64,000 nucleotides of DNA from an uncultured Melioribacteraceae bacterium (GTDB lineage: Bacteria > Bacteroidota > Ignavibacteria > Ignavibacteriales > Melioribacteraceae). The stretch spans positions 372-64,371 of the forward strand of contig CAZTYP010000029.1 in NCBI GenBank assembly GCA_964617555.1. The letters are read 5' to 3'. The notes beneath the pieces were generated by a model, which had not been told where the DNA came from, did no database searches, and saw only the letters and a list, made by a program, of their open reading frames with translations. Shown piece after piece: positions 4,040 to 61,004 of the stretch (its first letter is position 1; every line of letters starts with the position of its first letter). A program made the translations under genes and the position numbers.

Positions 4040-4115
4040 AAAAATTTTCGGTCGTTTATTTTATTTGATAATGGCTTTGTTAAGTATTGTGTTTTTAACC
4101 TTAAAAAAGAAATAA
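4026..4115 (+). CDS. Possible 29-aa single-pass membrane micropeptide
   Basis: ATG at 4026 and TAA at 4113-4115. Translation is MKKIKKIFGRLFYLIMALLSIVFLTLKKK: a basic N-terminus, a 17-residue hydrophobic core and a KKK end. It fills the only sizeable gap in an otherwise overlapping operon. There is no homology evidence. Confidence 0.25.
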   Translation: MKKIKKIFGRLFYLIMALLSIVFLTLKKK

Positions 4116-4116
4116 A

Positions 4117-5852: not shown

Positions 5853-5854
5853 AC

Positions 5855-7363: not shown

Positions 7364-8281
7364 ATGTTAAACCGCAAAGCGTATTTGTTTTTTTTATTTC
7401 ATAAATCTTACGATAATGTGAAGATTTTTCATCTCGTTTTTTTGTCTTTTTTTATCCTTTTTCAATCTGTTTTTTCGCAACAAATTAAGTATGAACTGTT
7501 CCCGAAAGGGCAAAATTTTATGCCGTTAAAAGCCAATTATCAAGAAGCTCGGATGGGAATTCTCTATTATCCGGATAACGGATATTTAAAAGTAGATATC
7601 GGGAATTCTTCCGACTTATTTGCGTGCTTTTTTTCAAGAAACGATAAATTAACTATTGCAATTGATTTTATGGCTTATGCTCTTTCCACGAATTATTCCG
7701 GCAAGCGTTTGCAAATAGCGGTGCTCGACGGTTTTTTTGGCGGGCATTTAGCTTACAGAACAGTTTCCGAAAAAAGAAATTTGCTTTTCCGTTTTCGTAT
7801 AATTCACAACAGTGCTCATTTTGTTGACGGGCTTTGGAGCCCCGCTCTAAAAGATTGGATTGGGGAGGAGAAACCTATTCCGTTTACGCAAGATTTTGGT
7901 GAGTTAACGGTTGCCGACGAGTTGCTTTCTAATTGGGGCAATGCTAAATACTATGGCGGTATCGGGTATTCTACGCTTGTACGCCCGGCAGAACTTGAAA
8001 AGTGGTGGGGCTTTGTCGGTTTAGAGATTAATTCGGATAAAATTTTAGGAACGGTTTTACAAAAGCCGGTTAACATTTATTTTGCATCTCACAATTCTTA
8101 TGCCGGTAAACCCGATTACAATATTAGTACAAATAATATTTTGGGTGTAAAGTTCGGTGAATGGTACGGAAAAGGAGTAACCGTTTATCTTAATTACTAT
8201 TATGGAAATCATAAATTTAGCGAGTATTATTTTAAACGTGTAAGTCAGTTCGGAATCGGGTTTAGCGTGGATTTCTTTTAG
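7364..8281 (+). CDS. Hypothetical secreted protein, probably an outer-membrane beta-barrel
   Basis: Signal-like hydrophobic N-terminus (LVFLSFFILFQSVFSQQ), alternating amphipathic strands, and a C-terminus ending in aromatic residues (GIGFSVDFF). Confidence 0.4.
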   Translation: MLNRKAYLFFLFHKSYDNVKIFHLVFLSFFILFQSVFSQQIKYELFPKGQNFMPLKANYQEARMGILYYPDNGYLKVDIGNSSDLFACFFSRNDKLTIAIDFMAYALSTNYSGKRLQIAVLDGFFGGHLAYRTVSEKRNLLFRFRIIHNSAHFVDGLWSPALKDWIGEEKPIPFTQDFGELTVADELLSNWGNAKYYGGIGYSTLVRPAELEKWWGFVGLEINSDKILGTVLQKPVNIYFASHNSYAGKPDYNISTNNILGVKFGEWYGKGVTVYLNYYYGNHKFSEYYFKRVSQFGIGFSVDFF

Positions 8282-10173: not shown

Positions 10174-11118
10174 TTGGAAAAATTAGTTAGAAAACGAATT
10201 GTTACCGTCGGTAAAATTTTTATCGGGATAGGATTAATCATTTTTTTAACTTTTTATGTTAAGCCGGAAAAAATCTATTTAACATTTATTCGGGCAGATA
10301 AAGGATGGTTGATTGTTACTGTTTTATTATTGCCGTTAAATTTGTTTCTCCAATTTTTAAAATGGAAATTACTTTCGGATGAATATTTCAGTATTAATAA
10401 TAACAAGGCAACGTTGCTTTCTCTTTTTTACGGAATAAGCGGGGGTATTTTTACCCCTATGAAATCGGGAGAATATTTTGCACGCGCTTTGCCCTATCCT
10501 AAAGTAAAAATGCTGGATGTTATTCTTGCAACGGTTGTCGATAAATTAGTTCCCGTCCTGTTTGTTTTATTAATAGGCGGAATGTTTTTTATTATTTATC
10601 TGAAAAGTTTATTTGAACTTTCGGTTTTTGCAACGGTTTTGTTTATTGTTGCGTATAAAATTATACTTTTATTGATTCTTTTTCTGTTGCTCGGTAACGG
10701 TAAATTTTCTGCAAAGTTAAAAACTCAATTAAAAACCAAAAAATATTTTGCACGGATATTTGAAAGAGTAAGTTTCTTAAAGAAAATATCTCCTGAAATA
10801 TTCGGCAAAATTATTATAATCTCTTTTTTGTATCATTTAACATTTACTTTACAGATGAGTTTTTTGCTTATTGCTTACAGCGGAGTTTTCAATTTGCCGT
10901 TATTTTTCTTTGCAGCCAACTTGATAATTTTTGCACAGATTGTAATTCCTCCCGTAGCTTTCGGAGAAATAGGTGTGCGGGAAGGAACCGCAGTATATTT
11001 GTTGCATAATCTCGGATTTTCCGCTGCCGTAGGTTTTAATGCGGCAATAAGTTTGTTTGCAATCAACTTATTATTTCCTTCGGTTGTCGGATTAGTGTTA
11101 TTATTAAAACGAGGATAA
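10174..11118 (+). CDS. Flippase-like membrane protein (UPF0104 / lysylphosphatidylglycerol-synthase transmembrane-region family)
   Basis: TTG start, about 8 TM helices. The family-typical C-terminal motif IPPVAFGEIGVREGTAVYLL is present. The next gene starts 1 nt after the stop. Confidence 0.6.
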   Translation: MEKLVRKRIVTVGKIFIGIGLIIFLTFYVKPEKIYLTFIRADKGWLIVTVLLLPLNLFLQFLKWKLLSDEYFSINNNKATLLSLFYGISGGIFTPMKSGEYFARALPYPKVKMLDVILATVVDKLVPVLFVLLIGGMFFIIYLKSLFELSVFATVLFIVAYKIILLLILFLLLGNGKFSAKLKTQLKTKKYFARIFERVSFLKKISPEIFGKIIIISFLYHLTFTLQMSFLLIAYSGVFNLPLFFFAANLIIFAQIVIPPVAFGEIGVREGTAVYLLHNLGFSAAVGFNAAISLFAINLLFPSVVGLVLLLKRG

Positions 11119-11119
11119 T

Positions 11120-12253
11120 TTGTTAAATCTTTTTTTATTACTATTTATCGGGTTACTCGGGTTCTATTATTGGTTTATAAAAAAGATTAGAACCGGTTTG
11201 AGTAAATTGGATTATTATAAAACCCGATACGGAGGAGAGGAATTTATCAGCGTTGTAATACCTTATAGGAACGAAACGGAAAACATTGTGGATAATCTCA
11301 AAAGTTTGGAGTCCCAAAGTTTTCCCGAAAACAAATATGAAGTAATTTATGTTGATGATTTTTCTGAGGATGATTCCGCAATAAAACTTCGAAATGCCGT
11401 AACAAAAAAGAATGTTAAATTATATTCCGTGAAAAATTCCGGCTTGAAAAAAGCACATAAAAAGCATGCAATAGAATATGCTCTTACTAAGGCAAAAGGA
11501 AGCATTATCCTCTATACGGATGCCGATTGCATTGTTCCACCGGATTGGATTTCTGCAATGGTAGCCGGCTTTGAAGAAAATACGGCTTTAATTTCCGGAC
11601 CTGTAAAATTTAAAAGTTCAGAAACACTTTTTGATAAATTGCAAGCACTGGAATTTGCCGGGCTAATTATTGCCGGTGCGGGACTAATTGCAAACAAAAC
11701 ACCAATGATTGCGAGTTCGGCTAACCTTGCTTTCAGAAAAAAAGTGTTTGATGAAGTTGGCGGGTACAGAAATTTAATGAATTTATCTTCCGGCGATGAT
11801 GAATTACTTATGCAAAAAATTGCGTATGATACGGATTACGAAGTTAAATTTTGTTTTGATAGTGATGCAGTGGTTGTTACAAAACCCAATGATAGTGTCG
11901 GGGAATTTAGTCAGCAACGAAAACGTTGGGCAAGTAAAGGATTTTATTATCAAAACAAAAAAATAATTTTTCAACTCGTTTTTATTTTTTTCTTTTATCT
12001 CGGTCTTATAATACAGCCGATACTTGGTGTGTTTTGGTCTCCAAAATTTTTACCGGTTCTTGCGGTTTCATTTTCGGTTAAAATTATTATTGAATATTCC
12101 GTTTTGAAAAAAGGAGAGGGGATTATTCTCGATAAAATTTATTTCCCGTTGTTTCTGTTGGCGGAAATTTTGCATATCCCTTATATAATTTATGCATCGA
12201 TTTCAGGATTATTCGGTAACTTTTCATGGAAAGGTAGGGAATTAGAGCGATAA
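11120..12253 (+). CDS. Integral-membrane glycosyltransferase family 2 (GT2/GT21-like, D,D,D,QxxRW type)
   Basis: N-terminal TM helix, then VSVVIPYRNE, YVDDFSEDDS, YTDADC and QQRKRWASKG (QxxRW). C-terminal multi-TM region ending in SWKGRE. Confidence 0.8.
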   Translation: MLNLFLLLFIGLLGFYYWFIKKIRTGLSKLDYYKTRYGGEEFISVVIPYRNETENIVDNLKSLESQSFPENKYEVIYVDDFSEDDSAIKLRNAVTKKNVKLYSVKNSGLKKAHKKHAIEYALTKAKGSIILYTDADCIVPPDWISAMVAGFEENTALISGPVKFKSSETLFDKLQALEFAGLIIAGAGLIANKTPMIASSANLAFRKKVFDEVGGYRNLMNLSSGDDELLMQKIAYDTDYEVKFCFDSDAVVVTKPNDSVGEFSQQRKRWASKGFYYQNKKIIFQLVFIFFFYLGLIIQPILGVFWSPKFLPVLAVSFSVKIIIEYSVLKKGEGIILDKIYFPLFLLAEILHIPYIIYASISGLFGNFSWKGRELER

Positions 12254-12254
12254 G

Positions 12255-12896
12255 ATGCAAAGGAAAAAAATTAAATATGTTCCGCCCGTGCTATTTCGTA
12301 AACTGTTTCCCACAACAATATGGAACGCCAAAACCGATAAAATACTTCTAACCTTTGATGACGGACCTAACGAGGTTACAACTCCGCTGATATTGGCGGC
12401 ATTAAAAAAACATTCCGTAAAAGGAGTTTTTTTCTGCGTGGGAGAAAACATTTTACGATACCCCGAAATTACAAAAGAAATAATCAAACAAGGACATATG
12501 CTTGCAAATCATACAATGACCCATAGAAAAATTTTTCTTTTTAATGATGAAGCGGAAAACGATATTGCCCTTTGTTCACAAGCAATTAAAGATATTACGG
12601 GTACATTGCCTCGTTATTTTAGAGCACCATACGGACGAATAGGTCTCAGAACGGAAAAATTATTGAATCGTCAAAGTTTGATAAACGTAATGTGGAGCTT
12701 AATCCCATACGATTACAAAAATGATTTTAATATTATTAGTTTTGCAGTTAGTAATTATTTAACAAATAATTCAATAGTGGTATTGCACGATAATGTAAAA
12801 TCAAAAACGATTATTAAAAAGGCGATTGATTATATAATTCAAGTAAGTGAACAAAAGGGATTTACAATAGGAGAGCCGAACGAATGTTTGAAATAA
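12255..12896 (+). CDS. Polysaccharide deacetylase, NodB homology domain (CE4)
   Basis: Canonical CE4 motifs LTFDDGPN, ANHTMTH, FRAPYG and VVLHD. 213 aa, with no signal peptide seen. Confidence 0.85.
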   Translation: MQRKKIKYVPPVLFRKLFPTTIWNAKTDKILLTFDDGPNEVTTPLILAALKKHSVKGVFFCVGENILRYPEITKEIIKQGHMLANHTMTHRKIFLFNDEAENDIALCSQAIKDITGTLPRYFRAPYGRIGLRTEKLLNRQSLINVMWSLIPYDYKNDFNIISFAVSNYLTNNSIVVLHDNVKSKTIIKKAIDYIIQVSEQKGFTIGEPNECLK

Positions 12897-13984
12897 TCTT
12901 TCTTGTGATACTTTCTTTATATTTTGTTTTTACTGTTGCCGTAATAATAGGTGCTGCAAAAACTTTTCCTAAAAAGGGGGAAAACAATTTGCCCTCTGTC
13001 TCCGTTATTGTTGCTGCACGAAACGAAGAAAAAAATATTGTCGAAACTCTTAAGTCCCTCGATAAATTGGATTTTCCCGAAAACAAACTTGAAATAATTA
13101 TTGTTGATGATAACTCTACCGATAATACCGGTAAAATAATAGACGAGTTTATTTCAGGAAAAAGTAAGTTTAAAAAAATCATATCAATTAAGGGAAAAAA
13201 AGGATTAAAAGGGAAAACCTTAGCCATTGCTAACGGAATTGAGCATGCAACTAATGAAATAATATTAACCACGGATGCAGATTGTGTGGTCTCGTCTTTG
13301 TGGGCTAAGCGATTGGCTTCCTATTATTTTGATGAAAAAGTTGCAATGGTAAACGGCATAACCAATCAGTTTGACGATACACTTTTTTCGGGAATGCAAT
13401 CGGCAGATTTTATCTATTTGCTCACAACGGCAAGCGGTACAATAAACATGGGCTTGCCTATGAGTTGCATCGGTAATAATATGTCTTATCGTAAATCTGT
13501 TTACGAAGAGATAGGAGGATATGAAAATCTTGATTTTTCCGTAACGGAAGATTTTAAATTATTGATGGCTATTAACAAATTAAAAAAATATAAAATTATT
13601 TATCCAATCGATAAAGATAGTCTGGTTACCTCCAAAGCATGCGTTTCTTTGCGAGAATTGTATCATCAAAAAAAACGTTGGGCAGTTGGCGGCTTGGATA
13701 GCGAGCCTGCCGGAGCTGTTCTTATTGCCACTGCTTTCTTTACAAATTTAATGATGCTCCTTTCGCCTTTCTTTTTCTCAAAATCGGTCTTCACGCTCTT
13801 TCTTTTTAAAATTATTATTGATTATTTTTTCATTACTCCCGTATATCAAAAATTAGGATTGAAACTACAACTAAAACACTTCCTTCTATTTGAACTTTAT
13901 TATATAATTTATGTTGTTGCAATGCCCGTAATACTCCTTTTTAATCGAAAAGTAAAATGGAAAGGAAGAGAATATGCAAAATAA
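12884..13984 (+). CDS. Integral-membrane glycosyltransferase family 2, paralog of the 11120-12253 gene
   Basis: VSVIVAARNEE, IVDDNSTDNT, TTDADC and HQKKRWAVGG motifs. C-terminal TM region ending in KWKGRE. It overlaps the deacetylase by 13 nt and the next gene by 11 nt. Confidence 0.8.
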   Translation: MFEIIFLVILSLYFVFTVAVIIGAAKTFPKKGENNLPSVSVIVAARNEEKNIVETLKSLDKLDFPENKLEIIIVDDNSTDNTGKIIDEFISGKSKFKKIISIKGKKGLKGKTLAIANGIEHATNEIILTTDADCVVSSLWAKRLASYYFDEKVAMVNGITNQFDDTLFSGMQSADFIYLLTTASGTINMGLPMSCIGNNMSYRKSVYEEIGGYENLDFSVTEDFKLLMAINKLKKYKIIYPIDKDSLVTSKACVSLRELYHQKKRWAVGGLDSEPAGAVLIATAFFTNLMMLLSPFFFSKSVFTLFLFKIIIDYFFITPVYQKLGLKLQLKHFLLFELYYIIYVVAMPVILLFNRKVKWKGREYAK

Positions 13985-14927
13985 AAAACATTCCCCCTTT
14001 CTTCATGTTTTGCTTTTTTTTGTTACGGTAGCAACTACGTTAATTGCCGGAGCGGAATGGATAACCGGTAAACCCGGTCCGTTTGATATTTCGGAGTTGA
14101 AAGTGGCACTTCCCTATACCGTTTCAATCCTTTTTATTCTCGGTGTTCACGAGTTCGGTCATTATTTTGCAGCACGTTTTCACAAGGTAGATGTAACGTT
14201 GCCCTACTTTATCCCTTTCCCGCCTCTTGCCGGGTTTCTTAATTTCGGAACAATGGGTGCTGTAATCAAAACACGTTCGTCTGTTGTTTCAAACAAAGTT
14301 ATGTTCGATATTGGTGTTGCCGGACCTATTGCAGGATTTTTTGCAGCTTTAATTGTATTAATTTACGGTTATCTGAATTTACCCGATGTTAATTATTTAC
14401 TTGCAATACATCCCGATTATTTTTCTCCGGATTATGGTCATGATGCAATTGTGCTAAAGTTCGGAAGTTCATTGTTGTTCGAATTTTTTAATTATATTTT
14501 TAACACTCCGGATAATTTTATACCCCCCATGACGGAAATTTATCACTATCCCTACTTAATTGCCGGATGGTTCGGTTTGTTTGTTACATCCATGAATATG
14601 ATTCCCGTAGGGCAACTTGACGGCGGGCATGTTGTTTTCGGGATGTTCGGAGAAAAGAAACACGAAATAATTGCTTCAATTTTTATGATTATTCTTTTAA
14701 TCTTCGGGTTTACCGGTACGTTGGACGCATTGTTGGGCTTAGGCCTTAATTTCGGGTGGACAGGCTGGTTGTTTTGGGCATTACTATTAAAATTTGTAAT
14801 TAAGATAAAGCATCCGCCGGTTTACATTACGCAACCGTTGAGTAAAACCAGAATGCTGTTCGGGTATTTTAGTCTTTTTATTTTATTTGTTACATTTTCT
14901 CCTTCGCCCTTTATTATTCAATTTTAA
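13974..14927 (+). CDS. Site-2 protease family (M50) intramembrane metalloprotease
   Basis: HEFGHYFAAR (HExxH) in a TM helix, plus NMIPVGQLDGGHV (NxxPxxxLDG). Polytopic, 317 aa. Confidence 0.8.
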   Translation: MQNKKHSPFLHVLLFFVTVATTLIAGAEWITGKPGPFDISELKVALPYTVSILFILGVHEFGHYFAARFHKVDVTLPYFIPFPPLAGFLNFGTMGAVIKTRSSVVSNKVMFDIGVAGPIAGFFAALIVLIYGYLNLPDVNYLLAIHPDYFSPDYGHDAIVLKFGSSLLFEFFNYIFNTPDNFIPPMTEIYHYPYLIAGWFGLFVTSMNMIPVGQLDGGHVVFGMFGEKKHEIIASIFMIILLIFGFTGTLDALLGLGLNFGWTGWLFWALLLKFVIKIKHPPVYITQPLSKTRMLFGYFSLFILFVTFSPSPFIIQF

Positions 14928-15153: not shown

Positions 15154-15945
15154 ATGTATAAACTATTACCAATTTGGGCTTTAGCCGTTTTATTTTTTGC
15201 TTGCGATAGCATTGAAGACGGTGTAATAGATCCGTACAATACCGAGTATAGCAAAGTTACAATTGATGCTCCTACCGAAATAAAATATGTTGATGAAACT
15301 ACGGAATTAAATACCTCGGTAACATTTTCGGAAAAAGGAAAAATTTCGGCCGTATGGATTAAAGTTGCATCGGTTGACGGAAGTTATGTTATTACGTATC
15401 ACACGGATATGAAAAATTTAAACGGCAATAAATATTACGCTTCCGTAAAGATGAAACCCGATATGCCGAGTTTGGCATATGCAATAGATTATTATTTTTC
15501 AACGGAAATACAACAAGGTAAAAAAATAGCTTCCTATATTTTTAATTACGATAATTCGCAAAACAACGTTCCTCCCGAAATATCTAATCCGCTCTTTTAC
15601 TATACTAATTCCGTACCGGCGTTGTTGGATACAATTAAAAATGAAAAAGAATTTTTGTTAACGCTTAATGTAAAAGATGATAACGGGTTGGCGGATATAG
15701 ATTCTGTTTATACTGATTTATATAATTATCAAGATACCAACAATGTAAAAGTTACCAGAATAGAACTGTTTGATGACGGCAAAATTGATGAAAGCGGAGA
15801 TAAAATTGCCGGCGACGGAATTTATACGCGTAAAGGATATTTCCCTGCTTACTCTGTCGGTAAACGGAAATATTTGTTTGTTGCAAAAGATAGAGCCGGA
15901 TTAATAAGTAATACCTTAACTCATAATTTTGTGGTGATTAGATGA
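15154..15945 (+). CDS. Hypothetical lipoprotein
   Basis: Signal peptide with lipobox (LFFACDS). The body looks beta-rich and Ig-like, with a C-terminal DDGKIDESGDKIAGDGIYT motif. It is the first gene of an overlapping operon. Confidence 0.5.
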   Translation: MYKLLPIWALAVLFFACDSIEDGVIDPYNTEYSKVTIDAPTEIKYVDETTELNTSVTFSEKGKISAVWIKVASVDGSYVITYHTDMKNLNGNKYYASVKMKPDMPSLAYAIDYYFSTEIQQGKKIASYIFNYDNSQNNVPPEISNPLFYYTNSVPALLDTIKNEKEFLLTLNVKDDNGLADIDSVYTDLYNYQDTNNVKVTRIELFDDGKIDESGDKIAGDGIYTRKGYFPAYSVGKRKYLFVAKDRAGLISNTLTHNFVVIR

Positions 15946-17510
15946 TATATAAAATATTAATATTTGTTGTTTTTTCTTCTGTGTTGTTCGGACAGTACAA
16001 TCCCTATACTTATAGTTTGGAAGAAAAAGAGATTGCAAAAATAAGTAGCATTACACCGGCAAGTAATTCCATACAAGATATTATTGTTGATAATAATTTG
16101 ATTATTCTCGGAACATCAAGAGGTATAAGCATTTCCGAAAATAATGGTGAAGATTGGATAAATTTTTATAACACGGCTCCTTTCGGTACTGACGGAACAA
16201 CGGCAATAGGTTATAATAACGGTGTAATTTGGGCAGCAACCGGACGAACAACACAAGTTGAAGGCGGAAGTTATTTGCCCGAAGGCACCGGACTGAAATA
16301 TTCTGTTGATAACGGAACAACATGGACATCAATCATGCAACCCCTTGATGATGAAGGAGATTCGCTAATTACATACGGAATAAACACAATACGTGCATTG
16401 CCTGTTACCGTTGCAATAAGTAATATTACTTACGATATTGCATTTACAAAAAACACAGTTTGGATTGCCTCTTTTGCCGGTGGCTTGCGCAAATCAACAG
16501 ATATGGGCAAAACTTGGCAAAGAGTTGTTTTGCCTCCGGATACCCTTAATTCTATTAGTCCTAACGATACTCTTGATTTTTCTTTACAGCCGGTTGCCGG
16601 AAAGTTCGGCCCCGAATCTTGGCTTAATCATAGAGTCTTTTCCGTGCTTGGCGTTGATGACTCAACTATTTATGTTGGTACTGCCGGCGGAATAAATAAA
16701 TCTACCGATAATGGTGTAAGTTGGGTTAAATATTCTCATCAAAATCAAACCAATCCCATAAGCGGAAATTTTGTTGTGGCATTGGGTAAAGATAATTCCA
16801 ACGGCTCTGTTTGGGCTGCAACGTGGAAAGCTGAAGACCTTAATGAATTTTGGGCTGTTAGTTTTACCGAGGATTGCGGCAACAATTGGAAGGTTACTCT
16901 TCCCGACGAGCACGCACATAATTTCGGATTTAAATATTTGGATAACGGCGGTTCGCATGTTTTTGTTCCTACTGATCACGGAATTTTTCGTTCCGCCGAT
17001 AAAGGGATAAGTTGGCAACAACCCACCGAAATAAAGGATAATATTACAAACATCTCAATTGGAACTAATATCTATTATGCGATGACGGCTGAAAAAATTT
17101 CCGTAAGCGATTATTATATTTGGATTGGCTCTAATAACGGGTTAGCAAGGTTAACGGAAGGAAGCAATGATTATTGGACGGGAGAATGGAAGGTATATCT
17201 TGCGTCAGATGATATTGAAAACAACGAAACGTATGCTTTTCCTAATCCTTTTTCTCCTTCTCAAGAAAAAATAAAAATAAAATATACGGTCCCGGACGAT
17301 ACCGAGGTAACAATACGAATAATGAATTTTGATATGCAACTTGTAAGGGTACTCATACAAAATGCCGGACGTGGAATTGGCGACCATTTGGAATATTGGG
17401 ACGGTAGAGATGAAATAGGGGAGATTGTTAAAAACGGTGTCTATTTTTATAGAATTGATGCAACCGTATTTAAGGAACCGCTTTTCGGTAAAATTATGGT
17501 GTTAAGATGA
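15942..17510 (+). CDS. BNR/Asp-box repeat beta-propeller protein with a T9SS C-terminal sorting domain
   Basis: Six SxDxGxxW-type Asp-boxes: SENNGEDW, SVDNGTTW, STDMGKTW, STDNGVSW, TEDCGNNW and SADKGISW. The C-terminus reads FPNPFSP...IRIMNFDMQLV...WDGRDEIGEIVKNGVYFYRI...GKIMVLR, which is typical of type A T9SS/FlgD-Ig sorting domains. Confidence 0.8.
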   Translation: MIYKILIFVVFSSVLFGQYNPYTYSLEEKEIAKISSITPASNSIQDIIVDNNLIILGTSRGISISENNGEDWINFYNTAPFGTDGTTAIGYNNGVIWAATGRTTQVEGGSYLPEGTGLKYSVDNGTTWTSIMQPLDDEGDSLITYGINTIRALPVTVAISNITYDIAFTKNTVWIASFAGGLRKSTDMGKTWQRVVLPPDTLNSISPNDTLDFSLQPVAGKFGPESWLNHRVFSVLGVDDSTIYVGTAGGINKSTDNGVSWVKYSHQNQTNPISGNFVVALGKDNSNGSVWAATWKAEDLNEFWAVSFTEDCGNNWKVTLPDEHAHNFGFKYLDNGGSHVFVPTDHGIFRSADKGISWQQPTEIKDNITNISIGTNIYYAMTAEKISVSDYYIWIGSNNGLARLTEGSNDYWTGEWKVYLASDDIENNETYAFPNPFSPSQEKIKIKYTVPDDTEVTIRIMNFDMQLVRVLIQNAGRGIGDHLEYWDGRDEIGEIVKNGVYFYRIDATVFKEPLFGKIMVLR

Positions 17511-18508
17511 TGAGAAAAAATATATTTGTTGCGCTTCTGTTTTTTACTACGGCTCTTCTTGCCCAATCAGTTCAATATACGGAAATGGCAAATATGCCCG
17601 GAGCTTTTGCCAGAACGGGTTTCGGAGCAAGAGGAATGGGAATGGGGAATGCACTTTCATCTGTAATTAATGGTGAAATGGCAACTTATTATAATCCGGC
17701 TCTTTCTGTCTATCAAACCGGTAATTCATTTCAAACGTCCTATTCCGTTTTGTCTTTGGACAGAAATCTTAACTTTCTAAGTTATACTCGTAAGTTCGTT
17801 CTAAAGAAAAAGAAAAATAAGTTCTCAGGTAAAAAAAGAATTGCCGGAATTAGTGTGGGAATAATAAATTCTGGGGTTTCTAATTTTGCGGAACGTGATA
17901 ACCAAGGAAATGTTACAGGTAAGTTAAAACCTACCGAAAATCAATTTTATCTCTCTTTGGCAAATCAGTTCTCCGAAAAATTATCGATAGGGTTTTCCGC
18001 CAAATTATATTATTCAAAATTGTACGACAAAGTTTCAACAACCACTTTCGGCATTGATGTAGGTATTCTTTACCGTGTTGTTACCAACATAGCGCTTTCT
18101 GCCGTGGTAACGGATTTACTCAGTAAATATGAATGGGATACAACACCGTTATACGGACAAGACGGCATAAACGGTATTGATGATAAATTTCCTCTCCTTA
18201 TTAAATTCGGAGCATCTTATTTTTTACCTGATAAAAACTTAACTGCCTCGGTTGAATTTGAACATAGCAATGTTGGTAATAATTATCTTCGTTTTGGTTT
18301 GGAATATGGAATTTATAAAGGCTTCTTTATTCGCGGAGGAATTGATAAATTTGATTTGAGCAATATATTCGTTCCTACTAGACCCGCATTTGGCTTTTCT
18401 TATTTACACGATTTTACATCACTTATTATGGGGGTAAATTATGCTTATGTCCTTGAGCCCTATTCGTCTTTTGACAAGCATATTATCGGAATAGATATTA
18501 ATTTTTAA
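17507..18508 (+). CDS. PorV/PorQ-family (FadL-like) outer-membrane beta-barrel protein
   Basis: Signal peptide, then an N-terminal FGARGMGMGNA...YYNPA motif. Alternating beta-strand pattern and a C-terminal aromatic residue (IDINF). ATGA overlap with the cargo gene. Confidence 0.65.
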   Translation: MMRKNIFVALLFFTTALLAQSVQYTEMANMPGAFARTGFGARGMGMGNALSSVINGEMATYYNPALSVYQTGNSFQTSYSVLSLDRNLNFLSYTRKFVLKKKKNKFSGKKRIAGISVGIINSGVSNFAERDNQGNVTGKLKPTENQFYLSLANQFSEKLSIGFSAKLYYSKLYDKVSTTTFGIDVGILYRVVTNIALSAVVTDLLSKYEWDTTPLYGQDGINGIDDKFPLLIKFGASYFLPDKNLTASVEFEHSNVGNNYLRFGLEYGIYKGFFIRGGIDKFDLSNIFVPTRPAFGFSYLHDFTSLIMGVNYAYVLEPYSSFDKHIIGIDINF

Positions 18509-18528
18509 TTGAAAATTTTAGGAATTTT

Positions 18529-19431
18529 ATGAGAAAAATATTTTTGATATCGTTAATAAGTTTTTTACCCTTATTTGCTCAAACAGCCGGTAACAGCGGT
18601 GCGGCTTTCCTTAAAAACGGTTTTGGTGCCCGTAATATTGCGATGGGAGATTTAGGCGTTGCCGGGGTTAACGATTTAACGGCGTTGAATTATAACCCGG
18701 CATTACTTTCCGGATACTCCGCACCGCAAATTATGCTCACGTATAACAAGTCGATTCAAGATCTTAATACACAATTGGTCGGGGCAAGTTTTAATATCTT
18801 GGGTTTGCCTTTTGCCCTCGGAGTAAATAATACATCTGTTTCCGAAATTGAAGTGAGAACAAGTGCTACGGACGAACCTATTGCAACGTTTAATGCACAT
18901 TATATGTTTACATCCGTTTCTACGGGATTTAACGTAGTGGATAATTTTTCAATTGGTGGAACGGTTAAATATATCTACGAAAATTTATTTTCCGACGAGG
19001 CGGATGGATTCGCTTTTGATTTAGGCCTCTCTTATAAAGGAATTGTCGAAGGGTTGGAATTCGGGGCATCGTTGAAAAACATAGGAACACTCTCCGAACT
19101 AAGAAACAAAGCAACAACGCTTCCAACCGATTTGCGAATCGGAGCGGCGTATTCTACGGCTGCGAAAGTTATTGAAACGAAATTTAGTTTTATAGGCGGC
19201 GTTCAAAAATATTTGGAAACGGATGATTCCCACATCCATATTGGTGCCGAAGCATATTACAGTAATACCGTGGCGATTCGTTTAGGGTATATGACCGGAT
19301 ACGAAGCTAAAGGCTTAACCGCTGGATTGGGTTTGTACTGGCATGGCATAAATTTCGATTATGCTTTTACGCCCTACTTATACGGTCTCGGAACTGCGCA
19401 CACAATATCTTTAATGTATTCATTCAATTGA
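18529..19431 (+). CDS. PorV/PorQ-family (FadL-like) outer-membrane beta-barrel protein, divergent tandem paralog
   Basis: Signal peptide, FGARNIAMGDLG...NYNPA motif, beta-barrel periodicity, and a C-terminal SLMYSFN. Confidence 0.65.
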   Translation: MRKIFLISLISFLPLFAQTAGNSGAAFLKNGFGARNIAMGDLGVAGVNDLTALNYNPALLSGYSAPQIMLTYNKSIQDLNTQLVGASFNILGLPFALGVNNTSVSEIEVRTSATDEPIATFNAHYMFTSVSTGFNVVDNFSIGGTVKYIYENLFSDEADGFAFDLGLSYKGIVEGLEFGASLKNIGTLSELRNKATTLPTDLRIGAAYSTAAKVIETKFSFIGGVQKYLETDDSHIHIGAEAYYSNTVAIRLGYMTGYEAKGLTAGLGLYWHGINFDYAFTPYLYGLGTAHTISLMYSFN

Positions 19432-19438
19432 TACTTTT

Positions 19439-20398
19439 ATGGAAATAATAAAATACACGGAAAAGTGGAAAGAAAAATGGGATAAATTTGTTGAGGAATC
19501 CAATAACGGAACACTATTCCATTTACAAAAATTTTTCGATTATCACAGCCCCGGCAAATTTAATTTCAATCATCTAATCTTTCTTGAAAAAGGAGAAATT
19601 GTTGCCCTTCTTCCAGGAGCAATGATAGGAAGTAAATTCGAATCTCCCATAGGCGCAAGCTATGGCTCCATAGTTACCAAAGATATCAAATTTGCAAAAG
19701 CAATGAAAATTGTTTCCACGCTTTTGGATTATGCCAAGGCCAACGGAATTACGGAGTTTGAACTTACAGCCGCTCCGGTTGTATACGAAGATAAGCCAAA
19801 TCAGAACCTCGATTTTGCAATGCTGTGGCAAGGATTTCATTATTCCTTACATTACATAAGCAGTGCCATTAAGTTAGATAAAAATGTTGATATTATTTCC
19901 CGTTTTCAACCTACCGTTCGCAGAAATATTCGTAAAACTTTTCGCAATTCCGATATCAGAGTTGAAATAAACGAACACTACGAGCAATTTTATCCTATCC
20001 TTTTGGATAACAAAGCACGCCACAACGTAAAACCGACACATACTTTAGATGAATTGTTGCGATTAAAAAAACTATTACCCGAACATCTTAAACTATTTAT
20101 GATTTATTATAAAGATATTCCTATCGGCGGTTCGTTGATGTTTTTTGTTAACAAAACTTGTGCCCTCTGTTTTTACAATATGCTCGATTATAAATATGAG
20201 CACTTAAAACCAATTCACAGAATAATGTATGAGGTGGTTAAATACTCTACCGATAAAGGTTACAGCTACGTGGATATCGGAGTTTCCCAAGATACATCGG
20301 CGGAAAATCCGATGACACCAAGTATGAGTTTAATTGAATTCAAAGAAAAATTTGATGCCAAAACTGTTATGCGTAATACTTTGTCTATTAAATTATAA
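19439..20398 (+). CDS. FemAB-like / GNAT-fold acyltransferase (Acetyltransf_6-like)
   Basis: 319 aa. The N-terminus W.EKWDKFVEESNNGTLFHLQKFFDY and the overall two-lobed layout resemble FemX/FemAB-type and BioF2-like GNAT proteins. Assigned by pattern only. Confidence 0.5.
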   Translation: MEIIKYTEKWKEKWDKFVEESNNGTLFHLQKFFDYHSPGKFNFNHLIFLEKGEIVALLPGAMIGSKFESPIGASYGSIVTKDIKFAKAMKIVSTLLDYAKANGITEFELTAAPVVYEDKPNQNLDFAMLWQGFHYSLHYISSAIKLDKNVDIISRFQPTVRRNIRKTFRNSDIRVEINEHYEQFYPILLDNKARHNVKPTHTLDELLRLKKLLPEHLKLFMIYYKDIPIGGSLMFFVNKTCALCFYNMLDYKYEHLKPIHRIMYEVVKYSTDKGYSYVDIGVSQDTSAENPMTPSMSLIEFKEKFDAKTVMRNTLSIKL

Positions 20399-20412
20399 TT
20401 CTGTTAACAAGC

Positions 20413-21537
20413 GTGACAAAGCAAAAAAAAATATCGATAACAATCGCCTTCCTCGGTAATGCAAATTACGATACGCGTGTTACAAATCTTGCCGATTCTT
20501 TAACGGCTGACGGAGTAGATGTAAAGATAATTTCTTTCGATTGGAAAACTCCTGGGTTTACTTCCGTTTCAGGAAATAGATCCGTCTTTAAATTAACGAA
20601 AAAGAAAAATCCTTTCGGATTCTATCTGAATTTTATCATTATTCTTTTCAAGGAATTATTAAAAACGAAATCTTCAATATATTTTGCCGAAGATATTCAA
20701 ACACTTCCGATTGTAACCTTTATAGCAAAATTACGCAAGGCAAAAGTCTATTATAACAGTAGGGAGTTTTATGCATTCCTTGCAGGATTGCGAAATAAAC
20801 CTAAAACACAAACCGTTATTAGAATGTTGGAAAAGTTCTTTATTAATAAAGTGGATAAGGTTTTGGTTACCGGTGAAAAAGATGCGGAGTTTTTAACGGA
20901 GTATTACGGAATTTCGAACATAGTGGTGATACGCAATCTCCCTTCGTTAAAAAGGGCGGATGCTCCGATGAATTTTAGAGAAATGTTAAATATTTCTGCC
21001 GATAAAACTATACTTTTGTATCAGGGAGTAATATTGGAAGGACGCGGATTGGAGCCGTTGTTAAAAGCTATGCAAAATGTAAAGATGTGCGAGCTTGTTA
21101 TTTTGGGTGATGGAGAATTTAAAACAAAATACGAACAATTTGCCGTAAAATTGAAAATTGAAAAAAGAGTTCATTTTCTTGGCAATATTGAGCAGAAAAA
21201 ATTAATTAACTATACCGCCGCCGCCGATATAGGCGTTGCTTTAATTGAAAACATAAGCAAAAGTTATTATTACGCATTACCCAATAAATTGTTTGAATAT
21301 ATAATGGCAGAGCTTCCGGTATTGGTTAGTAATTTACCGCAAATGAAAAAAATAACGGAAGAATATCAAGTCGGTTATGTTGTGGATTTAGAGCAAGATA
21401 ATTTGACCGATGTGCTCAAAAAAATAACTGAAAACAAATACAATTTGATTGAGTATAAAGAAAACTGTATAAAAGCCAAAAAAGAACTCAATTGGGAAAA
21501 GGAATACGAAAAGGTAAAACATTTGTTAATTGGATAG
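20413..21537 (+). CDS. Glycosyltransferase family 4
   Basis: GTG start. GT-B C-terminal domain with ILLYQGVILEGRGLEPLL and ALPNKLFEYIMAELPVLVSNLPQM (EX7E region). Confidence 0.75.
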   Translation: MTKQKKISITIAFLGNANYDTRVTNLADSLTADGVDVKIISFDWKTPGFTSVSGNRSVFKLTKKKNPFGFYLNFIIILFKELLKTKSSIYFAEDIQTLPIVTFIAKLRKAKVYYNSREFYAFLAGLRNKPKTQTVIRMLEKFFINKVDKVLVTGEKDAEFLTEYYGISNIVVIRNLPSLKRADAPMNFREMLNISADKTILLYQGVILEGRGLEPLLKAMQNVKMCELVILGDGEFKTKYEQFAVKLKIEKRVHFLGNIEQKKLINYTAAADIGVALIENISKSYYYALPNKLFEYIMAELPVLVSNLPQMKKITEEYQVGYVVDLEQDNLTDVLKKITENKYNLIEYKENCIKAKKELNWEKEYEKVKHLLIG

Positions 21538-21580
21538 AAAAAAATTATTCTTTATATTCTCACTCTAAATTTTAAGTTTG

Positions 21581-21673
<93 letters not shown>

Positions 21674-21775
21674 TTTTTTTTAAGTTTTCGCTTATATTCC
21701 GAAAAAACATTCACTATTCAATCAAAAAAACTTTCTTGAAAATTCGTTATTTTTAATACTCAAAAGAGGATTTTA

Positions 21776-44048: not shown

Positions 44049-44100
44049 AATGTTGTTTCTCTTTAACGCTTTCAGTATTTGTAGGAATTTTAAATAATAT

Positions 44101-50185: not shown

Positions 50186-50952
50186 ATGTTTTTTGAAAAG
50201 TATGTCTTGATGTAAAACGGGAGATCGTTTACAATATATCTTTTAAATAATCTTGTCGGCTCATTAAAAAGACGCCAAAGCCATTCCAGGCCCATTGATT
50301 GCAGTAATGCCGGACTTCTTTTCTTTGTTCCGGTAAAAAAATCTAAAGTAGCCCCTATGCCGATGTTAATTTTGCTGCCGAAAGAGTTCATGTTTTTATA
50401 TAACCATTTTTCTTGTCTCGGACATCCCAAAGCGGCAAAAACAATGTCCGGTTTAAAATCTGTTATTTTTTCAATCACTTCCTTGTTCTCTATTTCATCT
50501 TTTTCAAATTGATAGCTCGGAGAATAACAGAATAGGTTTTGTTGTGAAATTCCGTATTGATTTATTAGGATTGTTTCGGTTTTTCTTGATACTTCGTTTG
50601 TTCCTCCTATGATGGCAATCCTCTTATCTGATTTTAGGGCTAAATCTATTAAAACGGGGAAAACATCGTTGCCGGTTATTCTCGGAATCTTTTCTTTATA
50701 TTTACGTTTTATCAAACTTGTTATACCGAAACCGTCGGGTAAGTTTAGTAATGTTTGCTTACAAATATTGTTGAATTCTTTATCCTTGTTTGCAATTTTT
50801 AGAAAGTCCAAATTAAAGGTAGTTAATAATTTTGGGGTGTTGTTTTCGGTTAACAAATCCGATAAAAACAACTTCAAATTTTCTATTGTAAGCGAATGGA
50901 TAGTAATACCAAGTATTTTATACGTTCTGTAGGGTTGATTATTTGTCATCAT
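50182..50952 (-). CDS. WecB/TagA/CpsF family glycosyltransferase (GT26)
   Basis: ILGITIHS...TFNLDFL, PDGFG, IAIIGG and DIVFAALGCPRQEKWL are hallmark GT26 blocks. Its 3' end overlaps the convergent methyltransferase gene by 4 nt. Confidence 0.85.
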   Translation of the reverse strand: MMTNNQPYRTYKILGITIHSLTIENLKLFLSDLLTENNTPKLLTTFNLDFLKIANKDKEFNNICKQTLLNLPDGFGITSLIKRKYKEKIPRITGNDVFPVLIDLALKSDKRIAIIGGTNEVSRKTETILINQYGISQQNLFCYSPSYQFEKDEIENKEVIEKITDFKPDIVFAALGCPRQEKWLYKNMNSFGSKINIGIGATLDFFTGTKKRSPALLQSMGLEWLWRLFNEPTRLFKRYIVNDLPFYIKTYFSKNI

Positions 50953-51006
50953 TTGTTGATAAAAATAATTATCTTAAAAGTTAAATTTAACATTATTTGG
51001 GTGAAT

Positions 51007-57512: not shown

Positions 57513-57602
57513 TATTTTTTTTGATAAAATTAAACATCAAATTTAGTTTTACGCTTTACCATATTCAAGCGATTATTTTAATAAAAGATTATAAAACTGA
57601 TT

Positions 57603-59029: not shown

Positions 59030-59043
59030 ATTTTATATCTCCG

Positions 59044-60939: not shown

Positions 60940-61004
60940 TGGTCTTCTCCTTAGTTTTAATTTTATTGCTTATGTAAAATGGTATAAGAAAATAACTAAG
61001 TATG

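What the first reader, a model, noticed from the sequence alone, without database searches (positions are those of the whole stretch)
15154..21537. Self-contained T9SS operon: lipoprotein, CTD-bearing BNR cargo, two PorV/PorQ barrels, FemAB(VimA)-like and GT4(VimF)-like enzymes
Six co-directional genes have ATGA overlaps (15942, 17507) or gaps of 7-20 nt. A 226-nt intergenic region bounds them upstream and the SRP RNA gene bounds them downstream.

The operon joins three kinds of component:
- a six-Asp-box beta-propeller carrying a T9SS C-terminal sorting domain
- two divergent PorV/PorQ-like outer-membrane shuttle barrels
- a FemAB/GNAT-fold acyltransferase followed by a GT4

As I recall from the Porphyromonas gingivalis literature (this needs verification), T9SS cargo is attached by PorU to anionic LPS through a linking amino sugar made by the Wbp/Vim pathway. 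In that pathway VimA is a FemAB-like aminoacyl/acyl transferase and VimF is a GT4 glycosyltransferase. Finding VimA/VimF-like genes fused into one operon with a specific cargo and dedicated PorV-like shuttles would be an unusual cargo, shuttle and anchor-sugar cassette. It may be a dedicated attachment route for one surface protein in a lineage that is probably not Bacteroidia.
Basis: partly seen in the sequence, partly recalled or inferred. Interest (0 to 1): 0.7.

Follow-up and report, generated by a model that had tools for sequence, protein, structure and literature searches.

The report
T9SS attachment-like operon with amino-sugar enzymes

Summary

The domain calls are right:
- a lipoprotein
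- a 7-bladed propeller with six Asp-boxes and a T9SS type-A CTD
- two paralogous PorV/PorQ-family barrels
- a FemAB-fold enzyme
- a GT4

The lineage is Ignavibacteriota (Melioribacteraceae).

The coupling is real. The barrels precede the FemAB gene in 46 of 58 FemAB-anchored loci. A FemAB gene follows barrel 2 in 49 of 57 barrel-anchored metagenome loci. In other lineages a paralogous FemAB (34-36% identity) with a different GT-B and a Wzx occupies the same slot. In a few, a GT4-Wzx-CE4-GT4 module does.

The FemAB model is closest to aminoacyl-tRNA-dependent transferases, including one that aminoacylates an amino sugar.

"Self-contained" and "one cargo with private shuttles" are not supported:
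- no sortase, translocon or Wbp genes are linked
- the locus is a conserved, mostly single-copy envelope locus
- the propeller's best structural match is PorZ

My best reading is a PorZ/PorQ-like attachment module linked to Vim-like linking-sugar synthesis. Orthology to VimA and VimF could not be tested.

The parts
15154..15945 (+). A: lipoprotein (263 aa) with two 'DDG..GD..AGDGIYS' (choice-of-anchor-X-like) beta-sandwich repeats
   Evidence: The lipobox Cys17 is invariant in 34 orthologs. There is a weak NF041940 match. A is the least conserved member (26-39% identity) but is always present upstream of B.
15942..17510 (+). B: secreted 7-bladed beta-propeller with six Asp-boxes, plus a T9SS type-A C-terminal domain (aa ~430-522); PorZ-like architecture
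   Evidence: Asp-boxes are listed. The AF2 model has pLDDT 91.2. The Foldseek top hit is PorZ 5m11, E = 2e-14. All 34 orthologs hit the PorU C-terminal region, 25 hit Por_Secre_tail and 13 hit the PorZ model. The PNPF, GVYFYR and GKI motifs of the CTD are invariant or nearly so.
17507..18508 (+). C: PorV/PorQ-family outer-membrane barrel 1 (divergent)
   Evidence: NF033709 scores 71.8 bits against a cut-off of 90. All 19 orthologs hit PorV_fam, PorQ, PorV2 and PorV. C is a paralog of D: hhalign probability 99.6%, E = 1.7e-23.
18529..19431 (+). D: PorV/PorQ-family outer-membrane barrel 2
   Evidence: NF033709 scores 133 bits against a cut-off of 90. PorQ scores 83 and PorV 56, both below the equivalog cut-offs. 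The family profile hits F. johnsoniae PorV 6h3i_F at E = 3.6e-20.
19439..20398 (+). E: cytoplasmic FemAB-fold (double-GNAT) transferase, probably aminoacyl-tRNA-dependent
   Evidence: PF13480 and PF02388 score above their gathering scores. The AF2 model has pLDDT 94.5. Foldseek top hits are Sba18/Sbb17, FemA and FemX at TM ~0.7, while acetyl-CoA tandem GNATs score 0.39-0.56. The family profile hits Sbb17 at 3.4e-10 and FemX at 4.7e-5, with the invariant K302 aligned to their conserved Lys. E is the most conserved gene of the cluster, at 62-87% identity.
20413..21537 (+). F: cytoplasmic GT4 (GT-B) glycosyltransferase, obligate partner of E
   Evidence: PF00534 scores 69.8 bits and PF13439 scores 37.4 bits. 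F follows E in 68 of 69 loci, with gaps of -11 to +419 nt and a median of 10 nt.
12884..14927 (+). Conserved upstream neighbours: membrane GT2 (12884-13984) and M50 metalloprotease (13974-14927). In other genomes a DUF1207 gene sits between them; in this window it lies at 7364-8281.
   Evidence: GT2b-DUF1207-M50-A is colinear in 42 of 42 loci with enough flank. Whether these genes belong to the same function is inferred only.
10174..12896 (+). Accessory upstream module: flippase-like LPG_synthase_TM protein, GT2, and a cytoplasmic NodB-like CE4 deacetylase (12255-12896; the same CAZy family as VimE)
   Evidence: Present upstream in 13 of 42 loci and in L074, L078 and L079.
21579..21676 (+). 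SRP RNA (downstream boundary, not part of the system)
50896..56310 (+). PorU2-like T9SS sortase with its own type-A CTD. It is the candidate transpeptidase that would use the product, and it is not linked to the cluster in other genomes.
   Evidence: NF052324 scores 432 bits (cut-off 450), NF033707 scores 265 bits, and TIGR04183 scores 25.6 bits against a cut-off of 23. No hit in 159 loci.

Best explanation

Genes A-D encode an outer-membrane assembly. Two paralogous PorV/PorQ-family barrels hold proteins by their T9SS C-terminal domain. B is a one-propeller-plus-CTD protein that I read as a resident, PorZ-like glycan-binding and presenting subunit rather than a passenger. A is a lipoprotein partner.

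Genes E-F are cytoplasmic. E is a FemAB-fold transferase that most likely takes an amino acid from aminoacyl-tRNA and puts it on the amine of an amino sugar. F is a GT-B enzyme that transfers that sugar, or the next one, onto an undecaprenyl-linked glycan unit. The unit is then flipped by Wzx, which is encoded beside the paralogous versions, and ends up on LPS or another glycolipid. The free amine of this 'linking sugar' would be the nucleophile for the PorU-like sortase encoded elsewhere, which would swap the CTD of T9SS cargo for the glycolipid.

Shown: the gene content, folds, family memberships, conserved linkage, and replacement by paralogous or alternative amino-sugar modules.

Inferred: the aminoacyl-tRNA donor, the sugar acceptor, the PorZ-like role of B, use by the sortase, and co-transcription.
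For: 1. T9SS identity of A-D.
- D passes the PorV_fam cut-off, and its profile hits PorV at 3.6e-20.
- C is D's paralog.
- The B family carries a type-A CTD. 25 of 34 orthologs hit Por_Secre_tail and all 34 hit the PorU C-terminal region. Profile A5 hits PorU 6za2 residues 1057-1152 at E = 0.0012.

2. PorZ-likeness of B.
- The Foldseek top hit is 5m11, followed by the BT4663/BT4673 sensor class that PorZ resembles.
- 13 of 34 orthologs hit NF052228 PorZ, best E = 1.2e-9.
- Profile A5's top PDB hit is a Reg_prop hybrid sensor, 3v9f.
- CTD column identity (0.69) is at least that of the propeller (0.63).

3. Coupling of A-D to the glycan enzymes.
- D lies upstream of E in 46 of 58 FemAB-anchored loci.
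- A FemAB-like gene follows D in 49 of 57 barrel-anchored loci.
- In L078 and L079 the same A-D orthologs (40-58% identity) are followed by a paralogous FemAB (34-36%), a divergent GT-B and a Wzx.
- Four further loci carry GT4-Wzx-CE4-GT4 instead. Every variant can yield a sugar with a free amine.

4. E looks like an aminoacyl-tRNA-dependent transferase.
- Fold matches are, and the profile matches with the aligned invariant Lys are.
- A Gly-tRNA-dependent FemAB-fold enzyme acting on an amino sugar is a known precedent (PMC12945691).
- VimA is the Ser/Gly-adding enzyme of the P. gingivalis linking sugar and, like E, matches TIGR03019 (PMC7468200).

5. The FemAB + GT-B (+ Wzx) pair is conserved in other FCB phyla: KSB1 and Marinimicrobia.

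6. A PorU-like sortase is present in the window, and LptF/LptG are present in a close relative.
Against: - E and F could not be compared with P. gingivalis VimA and VimF. E scores only 47 bits against TIGR03019 (cut-off 260).
- No Wbp pathway genes are in the window.
- The CE4 (VimE-family) gene is upstream in only 13 of 42 loci.
- B has one Asp-box propeller, not PorZ's two Reg_prop propellers. The window's own B does not hit the PorZ model at E <= 0.1. Profile searches do not find 5m11 by sequence. Any propeller plus T9SS CTD would tend to match PorZ in Foldseek. TM-scores to PorZ are low (0.40/0.29), and GH74 and Ycf48 match the propeller better.
- B is tandemly duplicated in at least one genome, which is more cargo-like.
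- 12 of 58 lineages keep E-F away from the barrels, next to GT9, GT2 and methyltransferase genes. In KSB1 and Marinimicrobia the FemAB/GT pair has no barrel neighbours.
- PorV-like barrels also occur outside T9SS, for example BamG.
- No sortase is linked.
Confidence: 0.45

Rival explanations
1. B is an ordinary T9SS passenger, a surface beta-propeller adhesin or binding protein. The two barrels are its private shuttle and anchor proteins, in the way SprF/PorP-type partners serve type-B cargo. E-F make a private anchor sugar for it.
For: B has a typical type-A CTD. B can be tandemly duplicated, and some orthologs are named plain T9SS sorting-domain proteins. Cognate cargo-plus-carrier gene pairs are known for type-B CTD cargo (PMC12365241, introduction).
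Against: - The locus is a mostly single-copy, family-wide conserved locus embedded in envelope housekeeping genes.
- Two barrels for one passenger is unexplained.
- E is the most conserved gene (62-87% identity) and occurs with a GT partner in phyla and lineages that lack the barrels nearby. It therefore serves more than this one protein.
- B shows no catalytic signature and has PorZ-model hits.
Confidence: 0.2
2. This is a general envelope-biogenesis supercluster with no specific link to T9SS attachment. E-F (or the alternative modules) decorate the LPS core or O-unit, or another glycolipid, with an aminoacylated or deacetylated amino sugar for charge or barrier reasons. A-D form an outer-membrane complex that exports, flips or binds that glycan, or is a BamG-like accessory. 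Adjacency reflects a shared envelope regulon.
For: - Neighbours are GT2, DUF1207, M50, PMT_2/GT-C, GT9, Wzx and LptF/G genes.
- E-F sit beside GT9 heptosyltransferase-like genes where the barrels are absent.
- Weak BamG matches occur in this barrel family.
- No sortase is linked.
Against: B carries a conserved T9SS CTD, and the barrels are PorV/PorQ family, whose known job is to bind such CTDs. The recurring common denominator of the three downstream modules is an amine-bearing sugar, which is exactly what the T9SS sortase needs. PorZ itself is a glycan (A-LPS) binding protein (PMC12365241).
Confidence: 0.25
3. E is a peptidoglycan interpeptide-bridge (Fem-type) enzyme or a BioF2/CelD-like acyl-CoA N-acyltransferase, and its adjacency to the barrels is incidental.
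For: Some databases name orthologs 'lipid II:glycine glycyltransferase' or 'FemA/FemB family'. The FemX and FemA folds match.
Against: The obligate partner is a GT-B glycosyltransferase, often with Wzx, and never a mur or PBP gene. E lacks the FemA coiled-coil arm (319 aa against 400-420 aa). The best fold and profile matches are to the amino-sugar-aminoacylating Sba18/Sbb17 rather than to Fem enzymes. Linkage to the barrels holds across a paralog swap.
Confidence: 0.05

Closest known systems
P. gingivalis T9SS attachment complex (PorU-PorV and PorZ-PorQ)
   Same: PorV/PorQ-family barrels are paired with a secreted beta-propeller protein that ends in a T9SS CTD. PorZ is B's best structural match. 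PorZ binds the anchor glycolipid and hands it to the sortase (PMC12365241).
   Different: - B has one Asp-box propeller of 522 aa, while PorZ has two Reg_prop propellers and 776 aa.
- Neither barrel reaches the PorV or PorQ equivalog cut-offs.
- A lipoprotein is added.
- The genes are in one operon with glycan enzymes, whereas porZ, porQ and vim are, to my knowledge, unlinked in P. gingivalis.
- The sortase is not in the operon.
Wbp/Vim linking-sugar pathway (vimA-vimE-vimF operon, PGN_1056-1054)
   Same: A FemAB/GNAT-type transferase gene lies next to a GT4 gene. VimA adds Ser or Gly to a deacetylated amino sugar, and VimF probably transfers that sugar. Both VimA and E match TIGR03019 weakly. 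A CE4 deacetylase (the VimE family) is nearby in some genomes.
   Different: - No CE4 gene lies between E and F.
- No Wbp genes are nearby.
- Orthology is untested.
- Here the pair is fused to the barrel operon.
- It exists in at least two paralogous versions, plus a FemAB-less CE4 version.
Aminoacyl-tRNA-dependent FemABX-fold transferases (FemX Wv/Sa, FemA, Orf11/Sba18/Sbb17, MprF C-domain)
   Same: E has the double-GNAT fold at TM ~0.7 and a conserved C-terminal 'FK' Lys. Orf11/Sba18 aminoacylates the amine of an amino sugar.
   Different: Sequence identity is 12-16%. The donor and acceptor of E are unknown. E sits in an envelope-glycan context, not a peptidoglycan or antibiotic one.
PEP-CTERM/exosortase-associated FemAB (TIGR03019) with EPS loci
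   Same: This is E's best NCBIfam match. It is likewise a FemAB-like enzyme that co-occurs with a protein-sorting system and glycosyltransferases, and it has been proposed to make an amino-acid-modified sugar (PMC7468200).
   Different: E scores 47 bits against a cut-off of 260. No exosortase or PEP-CTERM proteins are here, and the sorting system is T9SS.
SprF/PorP-type cognate carriers of type-B CTD cargo
   Same: An outer-membrane barrel gene is encoded next to the CTD protein it binds.
   Different: The barrels here are PorV/PorQ family, and the CTD is type A.

Membership tests
PorV/PorQ family (NF033709) | Score at or above the curated cut-off (90 bits) on the family HMM | tested here: met
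   D scores 133.2 bits. C scores 71.8 bits, below the cut-off, but all 19 C orthologs hit the model (best 8.8e-24), and C is a full-length paralog of D (hhalign 99.6%).
PorV (NF033710) / PorQ (NF033711) / PorV2 (NF052325) equivalogs | Score at or above the equivalog cut-off (250 / 220 / 325 bits) | tested here: not met
   D scores PorQ 83, PorV 56 and PorV2 39. C scores PorV2 44, PorQ 40 and PorV 26. Neither can be called PorV or PorQ, although both lean towards PorQ or PorV2.
PorV/PorQ family | Binds the CTD of a T9SS protein at the outer membrane | not testable with these tools
   No multimer prediction or biochemistry was available.
T9SS type-A CTD (TIGR04183 / PF18962) | C-terminal ~80-aa beta-sandwich with the PxP, GxY and K-hydrophobic motifs, scoring above the cut-off | tested here: inconclusive
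   The window's B scores 15.9 bits against a cut-off of 23. However, 25 of 34 orthologs match (best 1e-6), all 34 match the PorU C-terminal region, and some orthologs carry PF18962 and the NCBI name. The motifs PNPF, NGVYFYR and GKI are conserved, and the model shows a 7-strand sandwich at aa 430-520.
PorZ (NF052228) | Match to the PorZ HMM at its curated cut-off | tested here: not met
   The window's B has no hit at E <= 0.1. 13 of 34 orthologs give sub-threshold hits, best 1.2e-9.
PorZ | Two beta-propellers followed by a retained CTD | tested here: not met
   The model has one 7-bladed propeller plus a CTD. Foldseek's top hit is 5m11, but with TM 0.40/0.29.
PorZ | Binds the anchor glycolipid and is required for sortase-dependent attachment | not testable with these tools
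   Needs genetics and biochemistry.
FemAB / Acetyltransf_6 (PF02388, PF13480) | Pfam gathering score, and a double-GNAT fold | tested here: met
   E scores 28.8 bits against 24 and 33.4 bits against 22. The model has pLDDT 94.5, with FemX, FemA and Sba18 as top matches at TM ~0.7.
Aminoacyl-tRNA-dependent FemABX transferases | A conserved catalytic Lys near the C-terminus (K305 in FemX Wv) | tested here: met
   K302 is invariant across 66 type-1 and type-2 sequences. It aligns with the Lys of 'RFKLGFG' (Sbb17) and 'AFKKVWG' (FemX Sa). Equivalence to K305 of FemX Wv is inferred from the shared motif, not from a superposition.
Aminoacyl-tRNA-dependent FemABX transferases | Uses aminoacyl-tRNA as the donor | not testable with these tools
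   The only evidence is that E's fold is closer to tRNA-dependent enzymes (TM 0.59-0.74) than to acetyl-CoA enzymes (TM 0.39-0.56).
VimA / VimF orthology | Reciprocal best similarity to PGN_1056 and PGN_1054 | not testable with these tools
   No P. gingivalis sequences could be obtained. There is no NCBIfam or Pfam model specific to VimA or VimF, and no PDB entry.
Wbp/Vim pathway | Co-occurrence with a CE4 deacetylase (VimE) and the WbpA/B/E/D genes | tested here: not met
   The CE4 gene is 6.5 kb upstream of E and is conserved in only 13 of 42 loci. No Wbp-type dehydrogenase or aminotransferase genes are in the 64-kb window. The rest of the genome was not visible.
PEP-CTERM FemAB (TIGR03019) | Score of at least 260 bits, and an exosortase context | tested here: not met
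   E scores 47.1 bits. No exosortase is in the window.
GT4 (PF00534 + PF13439) | Pfam gathering scores for both GT-B halves | tested here: met
   F scores 69.8 and 37.4 bits.

The most novel reading that the evidence does not exclude
Ignavibacteriota, and perhaps other non-Bacteroidia FCB phyla, use a minimal, previously undescribed T9SS attachment complex. It would consist of a one-propeller PorZ analogue, two PorV/PorQ-like barrels and a lipoprotein. Its genes are hard-wired to interchangeable 'linking-sugar' cassettes: two FemAB paralogs that aminoacylate a sugar from aminoacyl-tRNA, or a CE4 deacetylase version. The chemistry of the protein-to-glycolipid anchor would then be modular and swappable between lineages. 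It would also imply that VimA-type enzymes in general are aminoacyl-tRNA-dependent.
Probability: 0.3. Interest if true: 0.75.

Novelty: new variant of a known kind. Interest (0 to 1): 0.55.

Why it matters
T9SS cargo attachment has been worked out almost entirely in P. gingivalis and a few Bacteroidia. There the attachment-complex genes and the linking-sugar genes are scattered, and the biochemical donor used by VimA is unknown.

Here the two halves are joined in one conserved operon across a whole phylum. The link is preserved even when the sugar enzymes are replaced by paralogs. This is independent genomic evidence that the barrel-propeller complex and the amine-bearing sugar work together.

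It also yields three testable leads:
- The FemAB-type enzyme is aminoacyl-tRNA-dependent.
- B is a compact PorZ-like candidate.
- Three alternative cassettes predict different anchor chemistries.

Cultivated Melioribacter and Rosettibacter strains carry the cluster (L006, L021, L026), so these leads can be tested directly.

Tried and rejected
- **VimA/VimF comparison.** Direct comparison was impossible. No source of P. gingivalis sequences was reachable.
- **Single-sequence PDB searches.** Searches with B, C, D and E gave nothing useful. The barrel-1 profile also found nothing in the PDB.
- **Naming distant FemAB relatives.** The listing of cluster members on the nearest non-orthologous FemAB representatives gave almost no names.
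- **PorU2/PorV2 literature.** The only text hits were artefacts.
- **Other T9SS parts in the window.** I considered the TPR + DUF4292 pair at 38.9-41.5 kb as PorW/PorD. The DUF4292 protein is LolB1, and the TPR protein scores only 49 bits against a PorW cut-off of 250, so I rejected this.
- **B as an enzyme.** I considered a GH74 or sialidase-type activity. B has one propeller rather than the two-propeller GH74 cleft, and only repeat-level matches. I did not pursue catalytic-residue mapping.
- **The CE4 gene as an obligatory VimE counterpart.** Rejected as obligatory, because it is upstream in only 13 of 42 loci.
- **Promoters and terminators.** The scan was uninformative in this AT-rich DNA.
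- **Sortase linkage.** Looked for in 159 loci and not found.

Full report
**Observation**

They are A 15154-15945, B 15942-17510, C 17507-18508, D 18529-19431, E 19439-20398 and F 20413-21537 (GTG start). A/B and B/C overlap by ATGA. The remaining gaps are 20, 7 and 14 nt. The upstream spacer is 226 nt, and the bacterial small SRP RNA (21579-21676, 69.8 bits) starts 41 nt after F. B has six Asp-boxes. Consensus promoter and terminator scans were no better than shuffles in this ~35% GC DNA, so co-transcription is inferred from spacing alone.

**Identity of the parts**

- **A** is a lipoprotein. Its lipobox Cys17 is invariant, and it carries two 'DDG..GD..AGDGIYS' repeats.
- **B** folds with high confidence (pLDDT 91.2) into one 7-bladed propeller followed by a 7-strand beta-sandwich at aa ~430-520. 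The sandwich carries the conserved PNPF, NGVYFYR and GKI motifs of T9SS type-A CTDs.
  - The window copy is below the TIGR04183 cut-off (15.9 bits against 23).
  - 25 of 34 orthologs match TIGR04183, and all 34 match the C-terminal region of the PorU model.
- **D** passes the PorV/PorQ family cut-off (133 bits against 90). Its family profile finds F. johnsoniae PorV at E = 3.6e-20.
- **C** is sub-threshold (71.8 bits) but is a full-length paralog of D (hhalign 99.6%, 22% identity). All C orthologs hit the PorV, PorQ and PorV2 models. Neither barrel reaches the PorV, PorQ or PorV2 equivalog cut-offs.
- **E** passes the Pfam Acetyltransf_6 and FemAB cut-offs. Its best NCBIfam match is TIGR03019 at 47 bits.
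- **F** is a standard GT4.
- E and F have no signal peptide or TM segment.
- B, C and D have signal peptides ending just before a Gln. That Gln is invariant in the B and D families.

**Lineage**

The 100%-identical proteins sit on a 125-kb contig. The nearest named relatives are Melioribacteraceae, Melioribacter, Rosettibacter and Ignavibacteriales.

**Conservation**

I used two independent samples.

*FemAB-anchored sample: 73 GTDB species loci.*
- A, B, C, D and E are colinear in 47 loci.
- Among the 58 loci with at least 4.5 kb upstream, D precedes E in 46. It is adjacent in 33. In 13, an insertion of 0.4-4.5 kb separates them, and the three examined (L010, L011, L055) carry PMT_2/GT-C membrane glycosyltransferases.
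- The other 12 loci lack the barrels nearby.
- F follows E in 68 of 69 loci, with a median gap of 10 nt.
- E is the most conserved gene (62-87% identity). The barrels and B are 42-68% identical, and A is 26-39%.
- GT2b-DUF1207-M50 precede A in all 42 loci with enough flank.

*Barrel-anchored sample: 80 metagenome loci found with the D profile.*
- Of the 57 loci with room after D, 49 have a FemAB-like gene downstream.

**The decisive synteny result**

A profile of distant FemAB relatives led to loci L078 and L079. There, clear orthologs of GT2, CE4, GT2, DUF1207, M50, A, B, C and D are followed at the same position by a different FemAB subfamily. B is 46-47% identical to the window's copy, C 43-52% and D 40-58%, but this FemAB is only 34-36% identical to E. 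It is followed in turn by a divergent ~358-aa GT-B with no BLAST similarity to F, then a Wzx flippase, a GT4 and a GT9.

In the barrel-anchored sample, seven loci carry this type-2 version. Four of the eight FemAB-less loci carry a third module: GT4, Wzx, a CE4-domain protein and GT4.

The A-D block is therefore followed by an amino-sugar glycan cassette in about 53 of 57 loci, and the cassette has been exchanged at least twice. That is hard to explain without a functional tie. The shared property of the cassettes is a sugar carrying a free amine, either aminoacylated or de-N-acetylated.

Outside Ignavibacteriota, in KSB1, Marinimicrobia and one unnamed 3.1-Mb contig, the FemAB-like gene keeps a GT-B neighbour, and in two of these three loci a Wzx, but has no barrels nearby. 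Where type-1 E-F lies apart from the barrels, its neighbours are GT9, GT2 and methyltransferase genes.

**What E is**

- The model (pLDDT 94.5) matches aminoacyl-tRNA-dependent transferases best. The hits are Sba18/Sbb17 (TM 0.68-0.78), FemA, FemX Sa, FemX Wv (0.73) and MprF/aa-PGS domains (0.59).
- Acetyl-CoA tandem GNATs reach only 0.39-0.56.
- The combined type-1 and type-2 profile finds Sbb17 at 3.4e-10 and FemX Sa at 4.7e-5.
- The family's invariant Lys302 aligns to the conserved 'FK' Lys of those enzymes. In FemX Wv the corresponding Lys305 is catalytic (PMC12945691).
- The same review records that Orf11 of the streptothricin-related antibiotic BD-12 pathway transfers Gly from Gly-tRNA onto the amino-sugar compound streptothrisamine. 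The top-matching Sba18/Sbb17 structures are aminoacyl-tRNA-dependent enzymes solved in complex with that same compound. This is the kind of reaction proposed for VimA.

**What B is**

- The Foldseek top hit is PorZ (5m11, E = 2e-14), followed by the BT4663/BT4673 sensors that PorZ resembles.
- 13 of 34 orthologs give sub-threshold hits to the NCBIfam PorZ model.
- The larger B profile's best PDB sequence hit is a Reg_prop hybrid sensor, and it also hits the PorU CTD at 0.0012.
- Against this: TM-scores to PorZ are low. B has one propeller, not two. The window copy misses the PorZ model. Any propeller plus CTD will tend to find PorZ. B is tandemly duplicated in a close relative.
- B works plausibly like PorZ but is not a PorZ family member.

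**Comparison with the known system**

In P. gingivalis, PorU-PorV and PorZ-PorQ form the attachment complex, and PorZ delivers A-LPS to the sortase (PMC12365241). The linking sugar is made by Wbp enzymes plus VimE (a CE4 deacetylase) and VimA (which adds Ser or Gly). VimF probably transfers it to an und-PP-linked pentasaccharide, which is then flipped (PMC7468200, PMC13086638). VimA also matches TIGR03019 (PMC7468200).

What differs here:
- One operon unites barrel, propeller and sugar genes.
- The components are not orthologs by curated thresholds.
- There are no Wbp genes in 64 kb.
- The CE4 gene is only sometimes nearby.
- The cluster is not self-contained. The PorU2-like sortase is 29 kb away and is never within 8-10 kb in 159 loci.

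**Verdict**

- My best explanation (confidence 0.45) is a PorZ/PorQ-like attachment module genetically coupled to Vim-like, probably aminoacyl-tRNA-dependent, linking-sugar synthesis.
- The rivals are dedicated cargo with private shuttles (0.2), a generic envelope-glycan supercluster unrelated to T9SS attachment (0.25), and a peptidoglycan or other acyltransferase role for E (0.05).
- I found no description of this arrangement in the searchable literature.
- It is a new variant of a known kind. It is of moderate-to-good interest because it is testable in cultivated Melioribacter and Rosettibacter strains.

Noticed in passing
window 50896-56310 (+), with 42804-50952: An 1804-aa PorU2-like T9SS sortase (NF052324 432 bits against a cut-off of 450) with its own type-A CTD. 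It lies directly beside a Wzx / UDP-Galp mutase / GT4 / GT2 / GT9-like / GT4 / methyltransferase / WecG glycan cluster. No PorV-like barrel is adjacent to it.
   Followed up: partly
window 10174-13984 (+): A flippase-like LPG_synthase_TM protein, a 4-TM GT2, a cytoplasmic NodB-like CE4 deacetylase and a second 4-TM GT2. The set looks like a module for a de-N-acetylated amino-sugar lipid or oligosaccharide. It is present upstream of the cluster in 13 of 42 loci, and some genomes add a radical-SAM/DUF3463 gene.
   Followed up: partly
window 7364-8281 (+); loci L003-L073: DUF1207, which has a signal peptide, lies between GT2b and M50 in all 42 related loci. In this window and its close relative L074 it has moved about 5 kb upstream, leaving GT2b and M50 overlapping.
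   Followed up: partly
window 38898-42704 (+): A TPR protein, a LolB1 homolog (DUF4292; NF053559 98.5 bits against a cut-off of 50) and an EnvC-like M23 peptidase. The TPR protein is not PorW (49 bits against 250).
   Followed up: yes
window 36263-37711 (+): A 482-aa protein with weak BamG (52 bits) and PorV_fam (43 bits) matches. It is a third, distant PorV-like barrel in the window.
   Followed up: no
window 56352-62171 (-): A LysW-type alpha-aminoadipate lysine (or arginine) pathway cluster: LysJ/ArgD, an amino-acid kinase, a semialdehyde dehydrogenase, the LysX ATP-grasp enzyme and homocitrate synthase.
   Followed up: no
window proteins B, C, D and DUF1207 (N-termini); alignments A1, A3: The signal peptides end just before a Gln, which is invariant in the B and D families. 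This is the Bacteroidetes 'Q-rule' pattern, seen here in Ignavibacteriota, although PMC5837995 states the rule does not hold for the whole FCB group.
   Followed up: partly
L074 10001-11584 (GCA_021647785.1): A tandem second copy of B (60% identical, with Por_Secre_tail) sits just upstream of A in a close relative. LptF/LptG lie just downstream of F there, so the lineage exports LPS.
   Followed up: partly
L010 4538-5992, L011 7022-9961, L055 5551-7098 and others: In the insertion-bearing loci examined, one or two PMT_2/GT-C membrane glycosyltransferases are inserted between barrel 2 and the FemAB gene. These are periplasmic-face glycosyl transfer enzymes. Such insertions occur in about a quarter of related loci.
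   Followed up: partly
window 292-7354 (+): A further polysaccharide cluster at the start of the window: GT4, an FrhB-like protein, a polysaccharide pyruvyl transferase, a methyltransferase, a weak CE4 and a Wzx-type flippase. About half of the 64-kb window is devoted to envelope glycans.
   Followed up: no
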